From the sequence record PQ416618.1: a DNA stretch of 64,000 bases; one strand, 5' to 3'. The position numbers and the translations under genes are program-made. This document shows, piece after piece, positions 36,463 to 45,856 of the stretch. Within the stretch, counting starts at the first letter, position 1. Each line of letters begins with the position of its first letter. This DNA is from Escherichia phage vB_VIPECOMC06. The notes under the pieces were generated by a model. The model made no database searches. It saw nothing but the letters and a program-made list of their open reading frames with translations, and was not told the origin of the DNA.

Positions 36463-39174
36463 ATGAAAGAATTTTACTTAACGGTTGAACAGATTGGTGA
36501 TTCAATTTTTGAACGTTACATCGATTCTAATGGCCGTGAACGTACTCGTGAAGTAGAATATAAACCATCACTGTTTGCTCATTGTCCAGAAAGTCAGGCT
36601 ACGAAATATTTCGATATCTACGGTAAGCCGTGTACTCGTAAGTTGTTCGCCAATATGCGTGATGCCTCCCAATGGATTAAACGCATGGAAGATATCGGAC
36701 TTGAAGCACTTGGCATGGACGATTTCAAATTGGCGTATTTGTCTGACACTTATAACTATGAAATCAAATACGACCATACAAAAATTCGTGTGGCTAACTT
36801 CGACATCGAAGTAACATCTCCAGATGGGTTCCCTGAGCCGGCACAAGCAAAACATCCTATTGATGCTATCACCCATTATGACTCAATTGACGACAGGTTC
36901 TACGTATTTGATCTATTGAATTCTCCATATGGTAATGTAGAAGAATGGTCTATCGAAATTGCGGCTAAGCTTCAAGAACAAGGTGGTGATGAAGTTCCAT
37001 CTGAAATTATCGATAAAATCATTTATATGCCGTTCGATAACGAAAAAGAATTGTTGATGGAATATCTCAACTTCTGGCAACAGAAAACTCCTGTCATTTT
37101 GACTGGATGGAACGTTGAGTCATTTGATATTCCATATGTGTATAACCGAATCAAGAATATTTTTGGCGAATCTACTGCGAAACGTTTATCACCACATCGT
37201 AAAACTCGTGTTAAAGTTATCGAAAACATGTATGGTTCTCGTGAAATCATTACATTGTTCGGTATCTCTGTTCTTGATTACATTGACCTTTACAAAAAAT
37301 TCTCTTTTACCAATCAACCGTCATATTCCCTGGATTACATTTCAGAATTTGAATTGAACGTTGGTAAACTGAAATATGACGGCCCTATTTCTAAGCTTCG
37401 TGAAAGCAATCACCAACGATATATTTCTTATAACATTATCGACGTGTATCGTGTATTGCAAATTGATGCTAAGCGTCAGTTCATCAACTTGAGTTTGGAC
37501 ATGGGTTATTATGCTAAAATTCAGATTCAATCTGTGTTTAGCCCAATTAAAACATGGGATGCTATTATTTTTAATAGCCTTAAAGAGCAGAACAAGGTGA
37601 TTCCACAAGGTCGTTCTCATCCGGTTCAACCTTATCCTGGCGCTTTTGTTAAGGAACCTATTCCAAATCGATACAAATATGTAATGAGTTTCGACCTTAC
37701 ATCTCTGTATCCAAGTATTATTCGCCAAGTGAATATTAGCCCAGAAACAATAGCAGGAACGTTTAAAGTAGCTCCATTGCATGATTATATTAACGCTGTT
37801 GCTGAACGTCCTTCTGATGTGTACAGTTGTTCTCCTAACGGCATGATGTATTATAAAGACCGTGACGGTGTTGTTCCAACTGAAATCACTAAGGTCTTTA
37901 ATCAACGTAAAGAACATAAAGGTTACATGCTTGCAGCTCAACGTAATGGTGAAATAATTAAAGAGGCATTGCATAATCCTAATCTTTCTGTTGACGAACC
38001 ATTAGATGTTGATTATCGTTTCGACTTCAGTGATGAGATTAAAGAAAAGATTAAAAAGTTGTCTGCTAAATCTCTTAATGAAATGTTGTTTAGAGCTCAA
38101 CGTACTGAAGTTGCAGGTATGACTGCCCAAATTAACCGTAAATTGCTCATCAACTCGCTTTATGGTGCGCTTGGCAACGTTTGGTTCCGTTATTACGATT
38201 TGCGTAATGCTACTGCAATCACAACATTTGGTCAAATGGCTTTACAGTGGATTGAACGTAAAGTTAATGAATATCTGAATGAAGTTTGTGGCACAGAAGG
38301 TGAAGCTTTCGTTCTTTATGGTGATACAGACTCTATTTACGTATCTGCCGATAAAATTATCGATAAGGTTGGTGAATCTAAATTCCGTGATACCAACCAT
38401 TGGGTAGACTTCTTAGATAAGTTTGCACGTGAACGTATGGAACCAGCTATTGATAGAGGTTTCCGTGAAATGTGTGAATACATGAACAATAAACAACACT
38501 TAATGTTCATGGACCGAGAAGCTATCGCTGGGCCTCCACTCGGTTCTAAAGGTATTGGCGGATTCTGGACCGGTAAGAAACGTTATGCATTAAACGTGTG
38601 GGATATGGAAGGTACTCGTTACGCTGAGCCTAAACTCAAAATCATGGGTCTAGAGACTCAGAAATCTTCGACTCCTAAAGCAGTACAGAAAGCTCTTAAA
38701 GAATGTATTCGTCGTATGCTTCAAGAAGGTGAAGAATCATTACAAGAATATTTTAAAGAGTTTGAAAAAGAATTCCGTCAATTGAATTATATTAGCATCG
38801 CGTCGGTATCTTCTGCGAATAACATTGCTAAATATGATGTAGGTGGATTCCCTGGTCCCAAATGCCCGTTCCATATTCGTGGAATTCTGACGTATAACCG
38901 GGCTATCAAAGGTAATATCGATGCACCGCAAGTTGTAGAAGGTGAAAAAGTATATGTTCTGCCTTTACGTGAAGGAAACCCATTCGGTGATAAATGTATC
39001 GCATGGCCTTCCGGTACTGAAATCACAGATTTAATTAAAGACGACGTACTTCATTGGATGGACTACACTGTTCTCCTTGAGAAGACATTTATTAAACCAC
39101 TTGAAGGATTCACATCAGCAGCGAAACTCGAGTATGAGAAGAAAGCATCTCTGTTCGATATGTTCGATTTTTGA
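36463..39174 (+). CDS. 43: DNA polymerase (family B) gp43
   Basis: 903 aa; exo motifs FDIEV and YNIIDV, polymerase motifs DLTSLYPSII, KLLINSLYG, YGDTDS; length and N-terminus typical of the RB69-type enzyme. Confidence 0.97.
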   Translation: MKEFYLTVEQIGDSIFERYIDSNGRERTREVEYKPSLFAHCPESQATKYFDIYGKPCTRKLFANMRDASQWIKRMEDIGLEALGMDDFKLAYLSDTYNYEIKYDHTKIRVANFDIEVTSPDGFPEPAQAKHPIDAITHYDSIDDRFYVFDLLNSPYGNVEEWSIEIAAKLQEQGGDEVPSEIIDKIIYMPFDNEKELLMEYLNFWQQKTPVILTGWNVESFDIPYVYNRIKNIFGESTAKRLSPHRKTRVKVIENMYGSREIITLFGISVLDYIDLYKKFSFTNQPSYSLDYISEFELNVGKLKYDGPISKLRESNHQRYISYNIIDVYRVLQIDAKRQFINLSLDMGYYAKIQIQSVFSPIKTWDAIIFNSLKEQNKVIPQGRSHPVQPYPGAFVKEPIPNRYKYVMSFDLTSLYPSIIRQVNISPETIAGTFKVAPLHDYINAVAERPSDVYSCSPNGMMYYKDRDGVVPTEITKVFNQRKEHKGYMLAAQRNGEIIKEALHNPNLSVDEPLDVDYRFDFSDEIKEKIKKLSAKSLNEMLFRAQRTEVAGMTAQINRKLLINSLYGALGNVWFRYYDLRNATAITTFGQMALQWIERKVNEYLNEVCGTEGEAFVLYGDTDSIYVSADKIIDKVGESKFRDTNHWVDFLDKFARERMEPAIDRGFREMCEYMNNKQHLMFMDREAIAGPPLGSKGIGGFWTGKKRYALNVWDMEGTRYAEPKLKIMGLETQKSSTPKAVQKALKECIRRMLQEGEESLQEYFKEFEKEFRQLNYISIASVSSANNIAKYDVGGFPGPKCPFHIRGILTYNRAIKGNIDAPQVVEGEKVYVLPLREGNPFGDKCIAWPSGTEITDLIKDDVLHWMDYTVLLEKTFIKPLEGFTSAAKLEYEKKASLFDMFDF

Positions 39175-39214
39175 TATAATGTCATGGACGGTAAACTAAT
39201 TAAATGAGAGAAAT

Positions 39215-39850
39215 ATGAAAACTACTCCTATTACTATCGCTATTGACGCAATCATAAAACAAGCTTCTTCTTTGGCCGCTATGGCCAAAGTAATTAGTCA
39301 AAACCCTGCTCGTTATAATGCTATTCTAGAAACTCTTCGACGCCCAGGACTTAGTAATTATGAAAGCCGAGTAATTATTACAGGTGTTGGTAAGAATGCT
39401 AATATTGCAACTAAAGCTTCTGAGACATTTGCTTCACTCGGTATCCCGAGTATGTACTTGAACACAGGGCATTATTCTCATGGTGATGCAGGATTCATTG
39501 CGCCTAATGATGTGTTGATTCATATTAGTCGTTCTGGTAAAACTGAAGAAATGATAGGTGTGGCTAAGCATCTTAAAATGATTCGTCCGAACGTCAAACA
39601 GATTCTGTTGCATTGTAACCCTGACATTCCACAAGAATACGAAGCTCTTTTTGATTATACGTTCTGTACAGGCATCGCAGTAGAGGTTGATGAGAATTCT
39701 CTGGCTCCGACCATGTCCACTACATTGTTGTTAGCGCTTATCGATACGTTTGCTATCAACCTTTCGTCTGAACGTGGATTTACCTCTAATGACTTCCTTA
39801 AGTTCCACCCTGGCGGTGCACTAGGTGCCATGTTACGAGGCGAACAATGA
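39215..39850 (+). CDS. SIS-domain sugar-phosphate isomerase (KdsD/GutQ-like arabinose-5-phosphate isomerase, no CBS domains)
   Basis: SIS core VIITGVGKNANIATKASETFASLGIPSMYLNTGHYSHGDAGFIAPNDVLIHISRSGKTEEM parallels the KdsD N-terminal domain. Confidence 0.7.
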   Translation: MKTTPITIAIDAIIKQASSLAAMAKVISQNPARYNAILETLRRPGLSNYESRVIITGVGKNANIATKASETFASLGIPSMYLNTGHYSHGDAGFIAPNDVLIHISRSGKTEEMIGVAKHLKMIRPNVKQILLHCNPDIPQEYEALFDYTFCTGIAVEVDENSLAPTMSTTLLLALIDTFAINLSSERGFTSNDFLKFHPGGALGAMLRGEQ

Positions 39851-39990
39851 AAGCAATAACAATAGGACTTTTACTATTGATGCTTGTCATGACTATCTAC
39901 TGGAGCTTAACGGCTCCAGTATTGATTCCAACACTTGTAATCGGATGGATTATGATTGGACTACAAGCAAAGTATGAATGCTTTAACTAG
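39847..39990 (+). CDS. small hydrophobic peptide (47 aa)
   Basis: ATGA-coupled to the SIS gene; two hydrophobic segments; not in ORF track (<60 aa). Confidence 0.35.
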   Translation: MKAITIGLLLLMLVMTIYWSLTAPVLIPTLVIGWIMIGLQAKYECFN

Positions 39991-40003
39991 AATAGTGTAC
40001 AAT
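39979..40003 (+). promoter_or_regulatory. putative MotA-dependent middle promoter for the nucleotidyltransferase/kinase gene
   Basis: MotA-box TGCTTTA (39979-39985) with TACAAT 12 bp downstream. Confidence 0.4.
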
Positions 40004-40031
40004 ACACCTACTTACCAATGAGGACCACAAC

Positions 40032-41717
40032 ATGAAAAAAGCTGTTATTCTTGGTGCTGGATTGGCAACTCGTTTGTATCCAATAACGCATCATATTCCT
40101 AAGGTGCTTGTTAACTATAAACAAGACACTATTCTGAGCAATTTGTATACAATTTATTCTGACCTTGGCGCAGATGAAATTATTGTAGTAGTTCATTCAA
40201 AATTTGCTGAAACTGTTCGAGCTTATTGTGAGCAAGAAGGGTTCAATGTGACTATTCGTACAGTTGATGAAGCGTATGGTTCTGCTTATGCTCTTGCTAA
40301 ATTACACAAAGATTTAGACGGCCATAATGTAATTGTTAACTGGTGTGATATTATTCCTGATTTCGGTTCATGGTCTTGGAATGTTAACGCAATCTATGTT
40401 AAGGGTGACGAATGTCGATATAATTTCGACGGTGAAAATATCACTAACGTAGGTTCAACAGGTGGTAATGTTGTAGGAATTTATCAGTTCAAAGACTGGG
40501 AATTCTATATGGGTTCTACTGATGAGGAAATTCATGAATACTGCAAAGGACGTGATTTCGTAGAATTCCTTTACGGCAGCGCATTCAATAAATCAGAGCT
40601 TATGAATCTAATTGATTTAGGTGATATGCCTAAACTTGAAAAAGCTCATGAAGTTCGTGAACTTAATCGTAGTTTTAATGCAGTTGAAATTGGTGAAGAA
40701 ACTGTAACTAAATTCGCATTAACCGAACAGGGCCGAGCTCTTCAGAAAGATGAGATTTCATGGTATCTTAAAGTGAAATCAGATTCAGTTCCTCAGTTAG
40801 TTTCTGTTAATGAAAATAACTTTGAAATGGAACGCATTAAAGGTAAGCCGGCATTTGAATATATTAAATCCAAATCAAGTCTTGCTCGTCCACAAATTGT
40901 TGATGCAATTTTAGACGCACTGAAATTCAGCACAGACACTTATTTTGTAAGTCCTGAAACTGTTCGTCGTGATTTCACTAAAGAATTCTATACGAAAGTT
41001 ATTGATCGTTGTGAAAGTATTCAACCATTGATTGATTCATTTGGTAAAATCACACATGTAAACTACACTAAGATTGGGCGTCTGAAGCCAATGTTGAAAC
41101 AAGCTTTAGAACACCTTATTCGTTATCATAACCGTTCTCAGGGACAGTACTCTGTTATTCATGGTGACCCGAACTTCAGTAATACTATGATTACTGATAA
41201 CGGTGAAGTCAAGTTTATCGACCCTCGTGGATATTTTGGCGAAACCAAGATTTACGGGCCAAAATTGTATGATGAAGCTAAAGTGCTTTATGCTGTTTCA
41301 GGTTATGATGAATTCAACGCTAATCCGACCTGGGGGCAGTTTACTATTGATGAAACAACTTGTAATGTGACTATTAACATCAATCCATTAGTTTACAAAT
41401 ATGGAAAGATGAGTTCGTTTAACGAGTATCATCATTTGGCAGTGGCAATTATCTGGATTGCATTAGGTGGTTATTTCAAGAATAATCCACTTAAAGCGGT
41501 AGCCGCATATTATAAAGGTATGGAACTTCTGACTAAGCAATTACGTAACATGGGCCGTGTACTTCAGGACGGCTCTATTAGTTATGACGTAGCAGAACCT
41601 GTAACGGCTACTCTGATTACAAAAAATCCTGGTAAATGGGTACTAACTGATAAAGAAACTGGTGTTTCCTATCGTCCAATCGGTGGCGATATCACTCATC
41701 AATGGGAACGAATCTAA
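40032..41717 (+). CDS. bifunctional sugar-1-phosphate nucleotidyltransferase / anomeric sugar kinase (561 aa)
   Basis: N-terminal RmlA/MurU-type motif AVILGAGLATRLYP; C-terminal APH/choline-kinase-type catalytic loop VIHGDPNFSN and FIDPRGYFG. Confidence 0.7.
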   Translation: MKKAVILGAGLATRLYPITHHIPKVLVNYKQDTILSNLYTIYSDLGADEIIVVVHSKFAETVRAYCEQEGFNVTIRTVDEAYGSAYALAKLHKDLDGHNVIVNWCDIIPDFGSWSWNVNAIYVKGDECRYNFDGENITNVGSTGGNVVGIYQFKDWEFYMGSTDEEIHEYCKGRDFVEFLYGSAFNKSELMNLIDLGDMPKLEKAHEVRELNRSFNAVEIGEETVTKFALTEQGRALQKDEISWYLKVKSDSVPQLVSVNENNFEMERIKGKPAFEYIKSKSSLARPQIVDAILDALKFSTDTYFVSPETVRRDFTKEFYTKVIDRCESIQPLIDSFGKITHVNYTKIGRLKPMLKQALEHLIRYHNRSQGQYSVIHGDPNFSNTMITDNGEVKFIDPRGYFGETKIYGPKLYDEAKVLYAVSGYDEFNANPTWGQFTIDETTCNVTININPLVYKYGKMSSFNEYHHLAVAIIWIALGGYFKNNPLKAVAAYYKGMELLTKQLRNMGRVLQDGSISYDVAEPVTATLITKNPGKWVLTDKETGVSYRPIGGDITHQWERI

Positions 41718-42103
41718 TGCACCGTGTAAAAAACATGCTTAATCTTTGTTTTGATGTCGATGATTGTATAACAGAGTGGAATAACAATCGTGATTACGTG
41801 AACTTCAAACCAGACGTCGAAATGGTATCTGCCATTAATGCTCTGTATGATGCAGGGCATACCATAACGCTTTACACTGCTCGCGGTATGAAGTCAGTCG
41901 GTCCTGGTCGTATAGCAATCGACATTCTCCCAAGTCTGATTCAGAACTTGGCAAACATTGGCTTGAAGTACCATAATTTGCTAACACATAAACCAGTATA
42001 TGATTGGATTATCGACGACAAAGCTATGCGTCCTGACGAATTCAAAGCTCTTATGAATAAAGGCGAATTCGAAACATTTAAATCATATAAACCGAATCTA
42101 TAA
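41717..42103 (+). CDS. HAD-superfamily phosphatase (KdsC-like)
   Basis: HAD motif I FDVDDCITE, motif II TLYTARG, motif III K (THKPVYD), motif IV IIDDKA; start uncertain (41717 or 41735). Confidence 0.65.
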   Translation: MHRVKNMLNLCFDVDDCITEWNNNRDYVNFKPDVEMVSAINALYDAGHTITLYTARGMKSVGPGRIAIDILPSLIQNLANIGLKYHNLLTHKPVYDWIIDDKAMRPDEFKALMNKGEFETFKSYKPNL

Positions 42104-42157
42104 TAATTTAAGTAAGACCTGCAAAAACCATCGCAACAATTAACGCGAGATGCAAAA

Positions 42158-43318
42158 ATGAATACCTTTAAAATCGGAACGAATTTTGATTTAGCTCTTC
42201 TTGATAAAATCGTAGAGCTCAATAAAACTTATCCTAATAGCTTGATAAACGAAGTATACGGCTCTACAAGAGAAATGGCTTTTGTAGCAGCCAGACCTGA
42301 TTTTAGGCTTCCTGACGTTGACAAAAAGATGTTAGAAGATTACGTTAAACGTTGTAACGAATTAGGTATTTGCTTTAACTATACACTCAACACGATAAAT
42401 CCTGGTTCAAAAAGAGAACTAGTTGAGTGGAAGAAGAAAGCTATTCAGGATTATGTTCAGTATCTTTGGTCAATAGGCGTATGGCGTATTACTATCGCTA
42501 ACCCTGTTGTTATGGAAATTGTTCGTGAAGTCAATAAAGACATTGAGATTGAAGTTTCAACAATTCTACATGTCGATGCTGTAACTCAAATCAAATACTT
42601 GCATGACCAGTATAATATCAAAAAGGTCTGCTGTGGAATTCATAAGAACCGTTCAGTTTCTTTCCTGAAGCGTGCAGCAGAGTTTTGCAATAAGAACAAT
42701 ATAATATTTGAAGTTCTTGTAAATGAGTTCTGTTCTAATGCTGGTAAAGGGTATACAACACATTGTAGTTATCGTGACTCTTGCTATATTTTCCATAGCA
42801 CCGATGTTACAGTAGATGATGCCAAATCCTTAAATGGATATCCAATGCAACACTGCATTAAAGCTCGTGATACAGACCCATTTAACTGGTTGAGAACTCG
42901 TTTTGTTCGTCCTCAAGATTTGAAACTTTATAATGATATTGGTATCACTCAATTTAAAGTTTCTGGACGTACAGGTAGCACCGACTACATTTTGAAAGTT
43001 CTTGAAGCTTATGCTTCTGAAAAGTTTGAAGGTAATTTGTTAGAACTGTGGAAGCCTTTAGAGACTATTTTCACTCTTGAAAACGAAACTGAGTTTTCAC
43101 ATACGGTAAATATTGAAACCTCTTTGTTAGATGGCTTTTTAGAAAAAAGGTGGTTCAAACATCCAGATTTCGATTGTGCTAATGAAATCTGTGGGACGAC
43201 GTGTACATATTGTGAAAGATATTATAAACGTCAGTTATCTAAAAACGGGTTATCAGAAAATTCTATATCTATTATTGATATAACTAACTCTGATGACGCT
43301 TTGAGGTACCCAGAATGA
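42158..43318 (+). CDS. Cys-rich enzyme of unknown function (386 aa)
   Basis: Cys cluster EFCSNAGKGYTTHCSYRDSC and C-terminal CANEICGTTCTYC; weak resemblance to the TIM-barrel peptidase-U32 (RlhA/UbiU) pattern; part of the sugar-nucleotide cassette. Confidence 0.55.
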   Translation: MNTFKIGTNFDLALLDKIVELNKTYPNSLINEVYGSTREMAFVAARPDFRLPDVDKKMLEDYVKRCNELGICFNYTLNTINPGSKRELVEWKKKAIQDYVQYLWSIGVWRITIANPVVMEIVREVNKDIEIEVSTILHVDAVTQIKYLHDQYNIKKVCCGIHKNRSVSFLKRAAEFCNKNNIIFEVLVNEFCSNAGKGYTTHCSYRDSCYIFHSTDVTVDDAKSLNGYPMQHCIKARDTDPFNWLRTRFVRPQDLKLYNDIGITQFKVSGRTGSTDYILKVLEAYASEKFEGNLLELWKPLETIFTLENETEFSHTVNIETSLLDGFLEKRWFKHPDFDCANEICGTTCTYCERYYKRQLSKNGLSENSISIIDITNSDDALRYPE

Positions 43319-43458
43319 TTTCTAGAAAAACTTTTAACCACCAACTTAATGAAGAGATTTTGACTATTAAAATTAACAGCAACGAACAAATTCTTAAACA
43401 GGCCCATAAGGGCCTGTTTGAAACTAAAGCGGCTAAAGTGATTAAAGAACCTAACTAG
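43315..43458 (+). CDS. hypothetical small ORF (47 aa)
   Basis: ATGA-coupled to upstream gene; contains CAGGCCC-ATAA-GGGCCTG hairpin; may be noncoding. Confidence 0.2.
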   Translation: MISRKTFNHQLNEEILTIKINSNEQILKQAHKGLFETKAAKVIKEPN

Positions 43459-43591
43459 AATACTACGCTGATGCATTTCTTCATAGTGTTCTTGGAAGTA
43501 TCGATGCCGAAGCTTTACGTTATATCAACATCGCTAAGAAATTCAAATAAGCTTTATGAATTGAGTATATAATAACTGTATTGAGGTAAAC

Positions 43592-44308
43592 ATGGGAAAA
43601 CATAACACAATGAAATATATTAAAGCCGCAGATTTTCAATCCGCATTTAAAGCAGTCAATCGTGAAATTTTAGAAAACCCGGAATTCGTAACTGATTCTC
43701 GTATTGGACGTTGTAATGAAATTGGGTCTATGACAGTAGTTGTTGACACTCCATCTTCATTCAAAATGACCGATCCACGTATTAACCGCATCTCTTATGA
43801 ATATGCTGAAGATTTCTGGAAGTTTATGATTTCTGGTGGTACTGATGCAGAAGAAGCATTTAAGGCATATCCTAACGTTGCTAAATTTATTTCTAAACCT
43901 AAATCAGACGCTTTGCCTGCAAACTTCAACACTTTCTATGGTCCACGAATTGCGGCCCAGTTACCAGCTCTTTTAAAAGAACTTAAAGAGAAACCTAACT
44001 CCCGAAGAGTTGTGTTCCAAATTCTTGAAAGTTCAGATCAGGCTTTGCTTGATTCAGACGAAACACTTGAATATCCATGTACTGACTCAGTGACTTATTA
44101 TATTCGTGATGGTAAGCTTTATACCCACTGTCATATGCGTTCACAGAACTGTGCTGTTGTTATGCAGTTGGATTTTTATCTCCAAGGAAAATTACTTCAT
44201 TATATCGCTAAAGAATGTGGTGTAGAAGTTGGTGATTATACTCATACCATGGTAAGTGCCCATGTGTTTGAACGTGATTTTGATTATGTTAAAGGATTCC
44301 TTGACTAA
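43592..44308 (+). CDS. 42: thymidylate-synthase-fold pyrimidine hydroxymethylase (dCMP hydroxymethylase-like)
   Basis: TS-family pattern NSRR, catalytic Cys in YPCTDSVTYYIRDGK, MRSQN; position of gene 42 between 43 and uvsX; N-terminal half differs from T4 gp42 as recalled. Confidence 0.6.
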   Translation: MGKHNTMKYIKAADFQSAFKAVNREILENPEFVTDSRIGRCNEIGSMTVVVDTPSSFKMTDPRINRISYEYAEDFWKFMISGGTDAEEAFKAYPNVAKFISKPKSDALPANFNTFYGPRIAAQLPALLKELKEKPNSRRVVFQILESSDQALLDSDETLEYPCTDSVTYYIRDGKLYTHCHMRSQNCAVVMQLDFYLQGKLLHYIAKECGVEVGDYTHTMVSAHVFERDFDYVKGFLD

Positions 44309-45207
44309 TGGCTATTTTCCGCGTACCTATCTTGAGTATGCGGTCTTATGAAACTGGACAGTATGCTATCCTTAAGGATGGCAACTTCCAACTTCATTTG
44401 CACCGTGCTAATCCAGGTGATGTGATTACATATCCACGTAATGCATCTGATATTAAAGAATGCGAACGTCTTTTCCCAGAATTTAAGTTTGTTCCATTAT
44501 GGTATAAAGATAACGCGTATAACACTCGTAAATATTTCTGGTCTGAAAATGAATTTGTGGTTGATTCATTAATTGATTATTATGATTGTGATTTTCTAAT
44601 CACAGATATCACTGGATATGACGGCGCTTTTGATGTGGAATTCAATTTCAATATCACTGCAGACCCTAATAAACCACGTTTTTATATTGACGAATTCTTA
44701 AAAACCGACATGTTGTCTGTTAATCGTTCACTTCAAACTACTGTGTTGAATGAACGTCAAAAAGAAGTGCTGGTTAACGCAGGTGCAGATGGTAATAAGA
44801 TTATCGTAACCCAGAAAGTTATACGTCCTTCCATCATGCAGCGTCTTGTAGGTGATTTGGCTCCTATTCATCTAGATGGTATTTTTCATCCATTTCGAAT
44901 TAGTGACCCATGCTATCGTTTTGAACAAGTGGTTGAATGCGCAATTCAATTAGGCCAACCGCTTTATATAACCGATCCAAATAATAGCTTCGACAGAAAT
45001 AAGTATCCTGAAGAAGCGCTGATTCGAATTTTTAATCCAACTAAAACTGAGTACTATCAAATTCTTAAAGGACGTCCGAAGATTCAATATTTCGAAAATC
45101 CTGAAGAAGTATTCCATCCAGGTCTTGGTGAGTTCATCTACTTTAATGCTTTAATTTCTTCGCCGTATAATATACCTAAATATGAAGATGTCGTAATCGA
45201 GGAATAA
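44308..45207 (+). CDS. hypothetical protein in the beta-gt slot (299 aa); candidate DNA sugar transferase
   Basis: TAATG-coupled to gene 42; occupies the locus where T4 has beta-glucosyltransferase; no motif recognised. Confidence 0.5.
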   Translation: MAIFRVPILSMRSYETGQYAILKDGNFQLHLHRANPGDVITYPRNASDIKECERLFPEFKFVPLWYKDNAYNTRKYFWSENEFVVDSLIDYYDCDFLITDITGYDGAFDVEFNFNITADPNKPRFYIDEFLKTDMLSVNRSLQTTVLNERQKEVLVNAGADGNKIIVTQKVIRPSIMQRLVGDLAPIHLDGIFHPFRISDPCYRFEQVVECAIQLGQPLYITDPNNSFDRNKYPEEALIRIFNPTKTEYYQILKGRPKIQYFENPEEVFHPGLGEFIYFNALISSPYNIPKYEDVVIEE

Positions 45208-45208
45208 A

Positions 45209-45757
45209 ATGGCTAAAATTATTTTAGTAGATGGCCCGGATAATGCCGGTAAAACAACTTTCATTAATGACATAATGGAAATTAGTGAAAGATATGTAAA
45301 GATTGATTTCCCTAAACGAACAGTTGATGGACGTTTCGATGTTAAGTCTCGAAATGAAGTTGGCTGTTTCGAAACGATGTTGAATTATTTAGACCCTACT
45401 AAGATTTATCTGTTAGACCGTGGATATATTAGTAACTGGGTTTATGGACGTATTCGACAAGATGCGGACTCGGTTCTTGACGTTTATGAACAGGATTATG
45501 TTCGTCTTTGCCAAAACCATGATGTGTTCACAATTATTTTAACACGTAACGAAATGACTGAAAGTTTTGAAGACGACCTTATTACTTTGTCTTCATTCGG
45601 TTTTAATACAGTCATTTCATATTTTGAAGAGTTTGCAATTCATAACAAAATTCAAACGTATCAATTACTTAATCATGATGGTGCTAACAAAGTTATAGGA
45701 TTTAATGCAAGCGAACGTAATAATTTGATTACAGAAATTATCAAATGGGCTCGTTAA
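45209..45757 (+). CDS. P-loop nucleoside/nucleotide kinase-like protein (182 aa)
   Basis: Walker A ILVDGPDNAGKTT, LLDRGY; resembles dNK/TMK-type kinases, not T4 gp1. Confidence 0.55.
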   Translation: MAKIILVDGPDNAGKTTFINDIMEISERYVKIDFPKRTVDGRFDVKSRNEVGCFETMLNYLDPTKIYLLDRGYISNWVYGRIRQDADSVLDVYEQDYVRLCQNHDVFTIILTRNEMTESFEDDLITLSSFGFNTVISYFEEFAIHNKIQTYQLLNHDGANKVIGFNASERNNLITEIIKWAR

Positions 45758-45856
45758 GAGCCTGTTTAAAGTTTTAAATGCTGTATAACCGTTAGTATAT
45801 AATCGTCTTATCTTTTAAACATGAGTAAAATATAATGATGCCTATGGAAAAATACA

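What the first reader, a model, noticed from the sequence alone, without database searches (positions are those of the whole stretch)
41717..42103. KdsC-like HAD phosphatase overlapping the kinase/NTase gene
A small capless HAD enzyme with all four HAD motifs (DVDDCIT, T, K, DD) overlaps the end of the bifunctional gene. It could dephosphorylate arabinose-5-P to free arabinose for the anomeric kinase, or act as a proofreading phosphatase; its role in the pathway is unknown.
Basis: partly seen in the sequence, partly recalled or inferred. Interest (0 to 1): 0.55.

Follow-up and report, generated by a model that had tools for sequence, protein, structure and literature searches.

The report
Known phage arabinose-bisphosphate phosphatase (AfhF)
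This small gene is real, but it is already characterised: it is 99% identical to phage HY126 AfhF, a crystallised phosphatase that removes one phosphate from arabinose 1,5-bisphosphate so the phage can make UDP-arabinose to decorate its DNA.

Summary
The window comes from an RB69-like T4-type coliphage (Mosigvirus). The ORF at 41717..42103 (+) is RB69 gene 51. It is a 128-aa capless HAD-fold protein. Its catalytic residues D13, D15, T54, K92, D100 and D101 are invariant across homologues. It is under purifying selection (dN/dS about 0.13-0.16). Its ATG shares one base with the stop of the upstream nucleotidyltransferase/kinase gene (TAATG).

The statement that its role is unknown is out of date. 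The product is 127/128 identical to PDB 9IQW, [quoted passage not shown] (released 2025-07-16). A 2026 NAR paper assigns RB69 gp51 to that step. The published pathway is:
- Ru5P to A5P, by the SIS isomerase
- A5P to Araf-1,5-P2, by the AfhE kinase domain
- Araf-1,5-P2 to Araf-1-P, by AfhF
- Araf-1-P to UDP-Araf, by the AfhE nucleotidyltransferase domain
- transfer onto 5-hydroxycytosine in DNA

Verdict: already known, low interest.

The parts
41717..42103 (+). CDS of the AfhF-type HAD phosphatase (128 aa plus stop). It equals RB69 gp51 / RB69ORF051c. Assigned activity: D-arabinofuranose 1,5-bisphosphate 5-phosphatase.
   Evidence: 127/128 identical to PDB 9IQW. Same coordinates as the RB69p051 CDS. 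PHROG 1238 E 1e-42. dN/dS 0.13-0.16.
41715..41719 (+). TAATG stop/start junction. The upstream gene's TAA and this gene's ATG share one base, which suggests translational coupling.
   Evidence: Sequence read. The same TAATG junction is found in RB69 and in Dhakavirus PSD2002; Thanatos-2 has a 4-nt overlap and Serratia X20 a 17-nt overlap.
41750..41773 (+). HAD motif I, F-D13-V-D15-D-C-I-T. D13 is the nucleophile and D15 the general acid/base.
   Evidence: D13 and D15 are invariant in alignment A1. They align to DLDGT of 1XPJ.
41876..41878 (+). HAD motif II, Thr54 (in LYTARG).
   Evidence: T54, R56 and G57 are invariant. T54 sits at the end of strand 49-53 in the model.
41990..41992 (+). HAD motif III, Lys92 (in HKP).
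   Evidence: K92 and P93 are invariant.
42014..42019 (+). HAD motif IV, Asp100-Asp101 (in IIDDK), the Mg2+ ligands.
   Evidence: D100 and D101 are invariant.
40032..41717 (+). Upstream partner gene: AfhE-type bifunctional enzyme (561 aa). The N-terminal domain is a sugar-1-P nucleotidyltransferase and the C-terminal domain is an APH/choline-kinase-like kinase. It makes the phosphatase's substrate and uses its product.
   Evidence: Pfam NTP_transferase at residues 3-99, with weak APH, fructosamine-kinase and EcKL hits at residues 308-409. PHROG 4098. Equals RB69 gp52:53, assigned as the AfhE analogue in PMC13326640. Shown to be a single 561-aa ORF in RB69 (PMC6024577).
39215..39850 (+). Arabinose-5-phosphate isomerase: SIS domain, KpsF/GutQ/KdsD-like, with no CBS domains. 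It supplies A5P from ribulose-5-P.
   Evidence: Pfam SIS. NCBIfam kpsF E 2e-32 and KdsD E 1e-30. RB69 gp55.
43592..44308 (+). Thymidylate-synthase-like flavin-dependent dCMP 5-hydroxylase. It makes the 5-hydroxycytosine acceptor base.
   Evidence: E 1e-161 to PDB 9IQC/9IR2 and E 3e-158 to 9IQU. RB69 gp48 was shown experimentally to make 5hodCMP (PMC13326640).
44308..45207 (+). Putative DNA arabinosyltransferase 1 (299 aa, equal to RB69 gp46:47). It consumes the UDP-arabinose.
   Evidence: PHROG 3891. Assigned in PMC13326640 Table 1. No Pfam or PDB sequence hit.
45209..45757 (+). Thymidylate-kinase-like nucleotide kinase (RB69 gp45). Cluster member; presumed to phosphorylate the modified dCMP.
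   Evidence: PHROG 761. Weak dTMP-kinase hit. PMC13326640 Table 1.

Best explanation
The ORF encodes the orthologue of phage HY126 AfhF. AfhF is a Mg2+-dependent, capless HAD-superfamily phosphatase that removes the 5-phosphate from D-arabinofuranose 1,5-bisphosphate to give D-arabinofuranose 1-phosphate.

Its place in the pathway:
1. The phage SIS isomerase (39215..39850) converts host ribulose-5-P to arabinose-5-P.
2. The kinase domain of the upstream bifunctional enzyme (40032..41717) phosphorylates C1.
3. This phosphatase removes the now unneeded 5-phosphate.
4. The nucleotidyltransferase domain of the same upstream enzyme converts Araf-1-P plus UTP to UDP-Araf.
5. Phage glycosyltransferases attach the arabinose to 5-hydroxycytosine in phage DNA, which protects it from host nucleases.

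Chemistry, inferred from the HAD superfamily mechanism: Asp13 attacks the phosphate to form an aspartyl-phosphate intermediate. Asp15 acts as general acid/base. Thr54 and Lys92 hold the phosphoryl group. Asp100 and Asp101 bind Mg2+.

The one-base TAATG overlap suggests that it is translated together with its partner enzyme.

What is shown and what is inferred: the activity and the crystal structure were established elsewhere, on a protein that differs by one N-terminal residue. The assignment to this window rests on that identity, intact catalytic residues and conserved gene order.
For: - 127/128 identity (only K5E) to PDB 9IQW. The entry title is 'phage HY126 encoded D-arabinose 1,5-diphosphate phosphatase AfhF', released 2025-07-16.
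- PMC13326640 states that AfhF is a Mg2+-dependent phosphatase converting Araf1,5P to Araf1P. It states that AfhE is both an A5P kinase and a UDP-arabinose pyrophosphorylase. It names RB69 gp51 as the AfhF analogue.
- The window is 97.8% identical to RB69 across the cluster.
- The catalytic residues are invariant, and the gene is under purifying selection.
- The order nucleotidyltransferase/kinase gene then HAD gene is conserved in Mosigvirus, Winklervirus, Dhakavirus, Thanatos and Acinetobacter phage Acj61. It also occurs in a 167-kb T4-like contig, L009, and in a deltaproteobacterial MAG, L044.
- All partner genes in the window are intact.
Against: - No assay exists for this exact phage's protein.
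- I could not read the primary paper (He et al., Nat Chem Biol 2026; not held). The regiochemistry therefore rests on the PDB title and a secondary description.
- Table 1 of PMC13326640 still labels gp51 'dephosphorylates Araf5p to Ara', which contradicts that paper's own text.
- Sequence alone cannot distinguish a bisphosphate substrate from a monophosphate substrate.
- Translational coupling is inferred only from the overlap.
Confidence: 0.9

Rival explanations
1. The phosphatase acts before the kinase: it hydrolyses arabinose-5-phosphate to free D-arabinose, and the bifunctional enzyme then phosphorylates that at C1.
For: This is chemically plausible. The same proposal appears as the putative function of RB69p051 and DLP3_081 in Table 1 of PMC13326640.
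Against: [quoted passage not shown] The PDB deposition names the substrate as the 1,5-diphosphate. The isomerase, kinase/NTase and HAD gene set matches the logic of the bisphosphate route used for ADP-heptose (GmhA/HldE/GmhB; established knowledge).
Confidence: 0.05
2. It is a proofreading or housekeeping phosphatase. It would clear mis-phosphorylated or toxic sugar phosphates rather than catalyse an obligatory pathway step.
For: Many small HAD phosphatases are promiscuous (general knowledge of the superfamily). No specificity profile was accessible to me.
Against: The gene is tightly and widely linked to the kinase/NTase gene, often with overlapping stop and start codons. Without a 5-phosphatase the pathway has no route from Araf-1,5-P2 to an NTase substrate. 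The published assignment is as a pathway enzyme.
Confidence: 0.03
3. It is a KdsC-type Kdo-8-phosphate (or nonulosonate-9-phosphate) phosphatase acting on host LPS or capsule sugar metabolism.
For: Bacterial relatives at 30-42% identity sit in HAD-KdsD-KdsA operons in Chitinophagales and next to NeuB in Bacteroidales and Capnocytophaga. The nearest NCBIfam model is a 'capsule biosynthesis phosphatase'.
Against: The phage has no KdsA or NeuB. The protein falls far below the TIGR01689 cut-off (49.5 against 162 bits) and gives no hit to KdsC models. KdsC structures are distant. The 99%-identical protein has a different established substrate.
Confidence: 0.01
4. It is a polynucleotide 3'-phosphatase of the Pnkp type, as some phage records annotate it.
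Against: Only 12-14% identity, reflecting a generic HAD core. There is no kinase domain. The gene context is sugar-nucleotide synthesis. The near-identical protein has been characterised otherwise.
Confidence: 0.01

Closest known systems
AfhF of Escherichia phage HY126 (PDB 9IQW); equals RB69 gp51 and DLP3 gp81
   Same: 127/128 residues are identical. It has the same length, the same start, the same catalytic residues and the same upstream AfhE-type partner. The predicted fold superposes at 1.6 A.
   Different: One N-terminal substitution (K5 here, E5 in HY126) in a poorly conserved, low-confidence segment. Nothing else.
Vibrio cholerae hypothetical protein, PDB 1XPJ (MCSG APC26283), and NCBIfam TIGR01689 EcbF/BcbF 'capsule biosynthesis phosphatase'
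   Different: The score of 49.5 bits is far below the family cut-off of 162. The substrate of 1XPJ and EcbF/BcbF is uncharacterised. The phage clade has its own conserved residues, for example K84, H86 and H91, which are not shared with 1XPJ.
GmhB, D-glycero-D-manno-heptose 1,7-bisphosphate 7-phosphatase (ADP-/GDP-heptose pathway)
   Different: 12-13% identity and no hit to GmhB models. GmhB is about 180 aa with an extra Zn-binding loop insert (established knowledge). It acts on a heptose rather than a pentose. The AfhE kinase is APH-like whereas HldE's is pfkB-type.
KdsC (YrbI), Kdo-8-phosphate phosphatase
   Same: Capless (C0) HAD phosphatase acting on a sugar phosphate derived from arabinose-5-P. 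The phage also carries a KdsD-like A5P isomerase.

Membership tests
HAD superfamily phosphatase | Motif I DxD at the end of strand 1 (nucleophile plus acid/base) | tested here: met
   D13-V-D15 is invariant in 21 homologues and lies at the end of strand 9-13 in the model. The residue at +4 is Cys in this clade, where most homologues have the usual Thr.
HAD superfamily phosphatase | Motif II Thr/Ser, motif III Lys, and motif IV acidic pair, in the canonical order on a Rossmann-like core | tested here: met
HAD superfamily phosphatase | Mg2+-dependent phosphomonoesterase activity | not testable with these tools
   Reported for the 99%-identical HY126 AfhF, according to PMC13326640.
AfhF (phage D-arabinose 1,5-bisphosphate phosphatase) | Sequence orthology to the characterised enzyme | tested here: met
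AfhF (phage D-arabinose 1,5-bisphosphate phosphatase) | Encoded next to an AfhE-type NTase/kinase, in a cluster with an A5P isomerase, a TS-like dCMP 5-hydroxylase and a glycosyltransferase | tested here: met
   All of these are present and intact at 39215..45757. The gene order is conserved across five phage genera.
AfhF (phage D-arabinose 1,5-bisphosphate phosphatase) | Hydrolyses Araf-1,5-P2 to Araf-1-P | not testable with these tools
   Taken from the PDB title and from PMC13326640. The primary paper is not held.
KdsC / YrbI Kdo-8-P phosphatase family | Matches the KdsC family model, or shows close structural similarity to KdsC | tested here: not met
TIGR01689 EcbF/BcbF capsule biosynthesis phosphatase subfamily | Scores above the curated cut-off of 162 bits | tested here: not met
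   49.5 bits at E 3.7e-13. This is the best-matching model, but the score is well below the cut-off. The protein is a relative, not a member.
GmhB heptose 1,7-bisphosphate phosphatase | Matches the GmhB or histidinol-phosphatase-type HAD-IIIA models | tested here: not met

The most novel reading that the evidence does not exclude
The phage AfhF clade is a specialised offshoot of a large, essentially unstudied family of minimal HAD phosphatases: 3,629 cluster representatives at E<=1e-3, of which only 5 reach E<=1e-30. In bacteria, members of this family sit in Kdo operons (HAD, CBS-less KdsD, KdsA in Chitinophagales) and in nonulosonic-acid operons (ATP-grasp, HAD, NeuB). That placement suggests the family is a non-orthologous replacement for KdsC-type and NulO-9-P phosphatases. 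It also suggests that phages captured the HAD plus CBS-less A5P-isomerase pair together from such an operon and then retuned the phosphatase to Araf-1,5-P2. This concerns the family's origin. It does not change what the window's gene does.
Probability: 0.2. Interest if true: 0.35.

Novelty: already known. Interest (0 to 1): 0.1.

Why it matters
For this window the finding adds nothing new. The gene is the known 5-phosphatase step of the phage UDP-arabinofuranose pathway, which feeds arabinosylation of 5-hydroxycytosine. That DNA hypermodification blocks restriction enzymes.

The practical value is in annotation:
- The widespread database label 'phosphoheptose isomerase' is wrong, as are 'polynucleotide kinase' and 'haloacid dehydrogenase'.
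- The likely start codon is the ATG at 41717, not the one at 41702.

Tried and rejected
- Pfam gave no hit for the ORF, so family placement had to come from NCBIfam, PHROGs, PDB and structure.
- The primary papers were not in the library: He et al. 2026 (Nat Chem Biol) and Mahler et al. 2025 (Cell Host Microbe). Searches for 'AfhF'/'HY126' and 'arabinofuranosylation' returned only citing papers.
- ATG 41702 as the start (133 aa, as annotated in Bas47) was rejected. It is not conserved in Serratia X20, and it arises from the upstream gene's Gln-Trp codons.
- ATG 41735 (Met7) as the start was considered, because many homologues begin there. It was rejected for this clade because HRVEN is conserved in relatives that lack Met7.
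- The promoter/terminator scan found no enrichment over shuffled sequence and no convincing dedicated promoter for this gene.
- The opposite-strand ORF at 41941..42222 (93 aa) was treated as spurious because it overlaps two conserved + strand genes.
- BLASTP of two HAD-fusion proteins against AfhE gave only weak kinase-motif similarity (E 5e-4 and 0.6). This is not strong enough to claim that their kinase domains are AfhE-type.
- PDB sequence searches for the AfhE-like, U32-like and glycosyltransferase neighbours found no close solved relative.

Full report
**What the window is.** The region 39100..45800 is 98.4% identical to Escherichia phage F2 and 97.8% identical to RB69 (Mosigvirus, Straboviridae). 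The neighbouring ORFs are the T4-type DNA polymerase, UvsX and gp41 helicase. Other records call it 'haloacid dehydrogenase', 'putative phosphatase', 'capsule biosynthesis protein' or 'polynucleotide kinase'.

**Observation check.** The ORF is real.
- The longest frame runs 41702..42103 (133 aa). The ATG at 41717 gives 128 aa.
- The stop of the upstream 561-aa gene is TAA at 41715-41717, so the two genes share one base (TAATG).
- In a 21-sequence alignment reaching 35% identity, D13, D15, T54, K92, D100 and D101 are invariant. Several other residues are also invariant: Y27, N41, H48, R56, G57, M58, S60, K84, P93, Y95 and D96.
- dN/dS against four homologues is 0.13-0.16.
- tblastn finds the gene in 383 phage records.
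- An AlphaFold2 model (pLDDT 83.6) shows a minimal Rossmann-like core with no cap domain.

**Start codon.**
- The N-terminal HRVEN peptide is conserved in Pectobacterium phage PM2 and in Dhakavirus homologues that have no Met at position 7.
- Dhakavirus PSD2002 has the same TAATG junction.
- The ATG at 41702 lies inside the conserved CAA-TGG (Gln-Trp) codons of the upstream gene and is missing in Serratia phage X20.
- The crystallised HY126 construct begins ...H-MHRVENM, which matches 41717.
- ATG 41717 is therefore the best-supported start.

**What it is.**
- Pfam gave nothing.
- NCBIfam's best hit was TIGR01689, 'capsule biosynthesis phosphatase' (E 3.7e-13, 49.5 bits, cut-off 162), with a weak HAD-IIIA hit.
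- PHROG 1238 matched at E 1e-42.
- The neighbouring thymidylate-synthase-like gene (43592..44308) is likewise near-identical to PDB 9IQC, 9IR2 and 9IQU.

**Literature.**
- Thomas et al. 2018 (PMC6024577) found arabinose on RB69 DNA. They proposed ORF055c and ORF53_52c as UDP-arabinose genes and showed that ORF053c/052c is one 561-aa gene. They did not discuss ORF051c.
- Lee et al. 2026 (PMC13326640) showed that the modification is arabinosylated 5-hydroxycytosine made from 5-hydroxy-dCMP by the TS homologue gp48.
- Citing He et al. 2026, they describe the sugar route. gp55 isomerises Ru5P to A5P. AfhE (RB69 gp52:53) phosphorylates A5P to Araf-1,5-P2. AfhF (RB69 gp51), a Mg2+-dependent HAD phosphatase, yields Araf-1-P. 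The AfhE N-terminal domain makes UDP-Araf.
- Table 1 of that paper still carries the earlier guess, 'dephosphorylates Araf5p to Ara'.
- I could not obtain He et al. itself.

**Mechanism.** The steps shown elsewhere are the activity, the Mg2+ dependence and the structure, all for a protein that differs by one residue. The steps inferred here are:
- transfer of that function to this window, based on identity, intact motifs and conserved gene order
- the standard HAD catalytic cycle through an Asp13 phospho-intermediate
- translational coupling through TAATG

**'KdsC-like'?** Only as a fold class.
- KdsC is not in the top 60.
- It appears in Foldseek only at E about 7e-3 with TM 0.45.

**Wider family (side result).**
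- A profile search finds 3,629 cluster representatives at E<=1e-3, 1,609 at E<=1e-10 and only 5 at E<=1e-30. The AfhF clade is therefore a small branch of a big family.
- Longer members are fused to APH/choline-kinase-like, cytidylyltransferase-like, NeuB, GT2, cupin or ATP-grasp domains.
- Among 79 loci from the genome collection, immediate neighbours are most often NeuB (26 of 146), ATP-grasp (22) and SIS (10).
- In Chitinophagales and Sphingobacteriales, the homologues with the highest identity (40-42%) lie directly upstream of a CBS-less KdsD-like isomerase. In the one locus examined further (L014), a bona fide KdsA follows (371 bits, cut-off 242).
- In a deltaproteobacterial MAG (L044), an AfhE-like NTase/kinase gene directly precedes the HAD gene.
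- So some bacterial relatives may well be functional KdsC analogues.

**Gene order across phages.**
- NTase/kinase followed by HAD is conserved in Mosigvirus, Winklervirus, Dhakavirus and Thanatos. In Acinetobacter phage Acj61 one small gene lies between them.
- The U32-family gene downstream (42158..43318) is present only in the Mosigvirus and Winklervirus clusters.
- Distant cyanophage homologues (30-38% identity) lie among nucleotidyltransferase, carbohydrate-kinase and epimerase genes.

**Verdict.** It is a HAD phosphatase of the arabinose pathway, but the proposed step is wrong and 'role unknown' is out of date. Novelty: already known. Interest: low.

Noticed in passing
window 42158..43318 (+): A peptidase-U32-family gene (RB69 gp50) lies immediately downstream and has no assigned role in the pathway. 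Evidence: Pfam U32 E 6e-11, a weak UbiU hit, and no PDB sequence relative. PMC13326640 lists it only as 'sugar or heterocycle reductase'. It is present in the Mosigvirus and Winklervirus clusters but absent from the Dhakavirus, Acj61 and Thanatos clusters. U32 proteins are O2-independent hydroxylases: RlhA for ho5C in rRNA (PMC5727448), TrhP for ho5U in tRNA (PMC6599085) and UbiU/V (PMC6747719, PMC10990095). Because the phage's flavin dCMP hydroxylase uses O2, this gene could supply an anaerobic route to 5-hydroxycytosine. It also carries a C-terminal CX4CX3CX2C motif. This is a lead only.
   Followed up: partly
L013-L015, L018, L020, L021, L023, L028, L029, L081 (e.g. L014:5980-7704): In Chitinophagales and Sphingobacteriales genomes, the closest bacterial homologues of this HAD (40-42% identity) sit directly upstream of a CBS-less KdsD-like A5P isomerase. 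In the one locus checked (L014), a KdsA that passes its NCBIfam cut-off follows. This suggests a non-canonical Kdo-8-P phosphatase.
   Followed up: partly
Bacteroidales, Capnocytophaga and other loci, e.g. L057:5061-7319; also L044:4254-6363: Many bacterial homologues lie between an ATP-grasp gene and NeuB (N-acetylneuraminate synthase). NeuB accounts for 26 and ATP-grasp for 22 of 146 immediate neighbours. A deltaproteobacterial MAG has an AfhE-like NTase/kinase gene directly upstream of the HAD gene, the same arrangement as in the phage.
   Followed up: partly
window 39847..39990 (+): A 47-aa strongly hydrophobic ORF (MKAITIGLLLLMLVMTIYW...) overlaps the isomerase stop codon by ATGA. A 144-nt CDS is annotated at the same position in Bas47, Serratia X20 and 308Ecol101PP. 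It looks like a small membrane protein of unknown role inside the arabinose cluster.
   Followed up: no
window 40032..41717 and 44308..45207: In this window both the NTase/kinase gene and the arabinosyltransferase gene are single intact ORFs (561 and 299 aa). The RB69 reference splits each into two (ORF053c/052c and ORF047c/046c). This agrees with published statements that those splits are sequencing errors in the reference.
   Followed up: yes
database annotation of window 41717..42103 homologues: The label 'phosphoheptose isomerase' is attached to this HAD phosphatase in PHROG 1238, RefSeq RB69 and dozens of phage records, including cyanophages. It is a misnomer, because the protein has no SIS/isomerase domain.
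   Followed up: yes
window 43315..43572 (+): Between the U32 gene and the hydroxylase gene, this window has only short ORFs (47 aa and 33 aa). RB69 annotates a 79-aa ORF049c there and 308Ecol101PP a 53-aa CDS. The spacer is therefore variable among near-identical phages.
   Followed up: no
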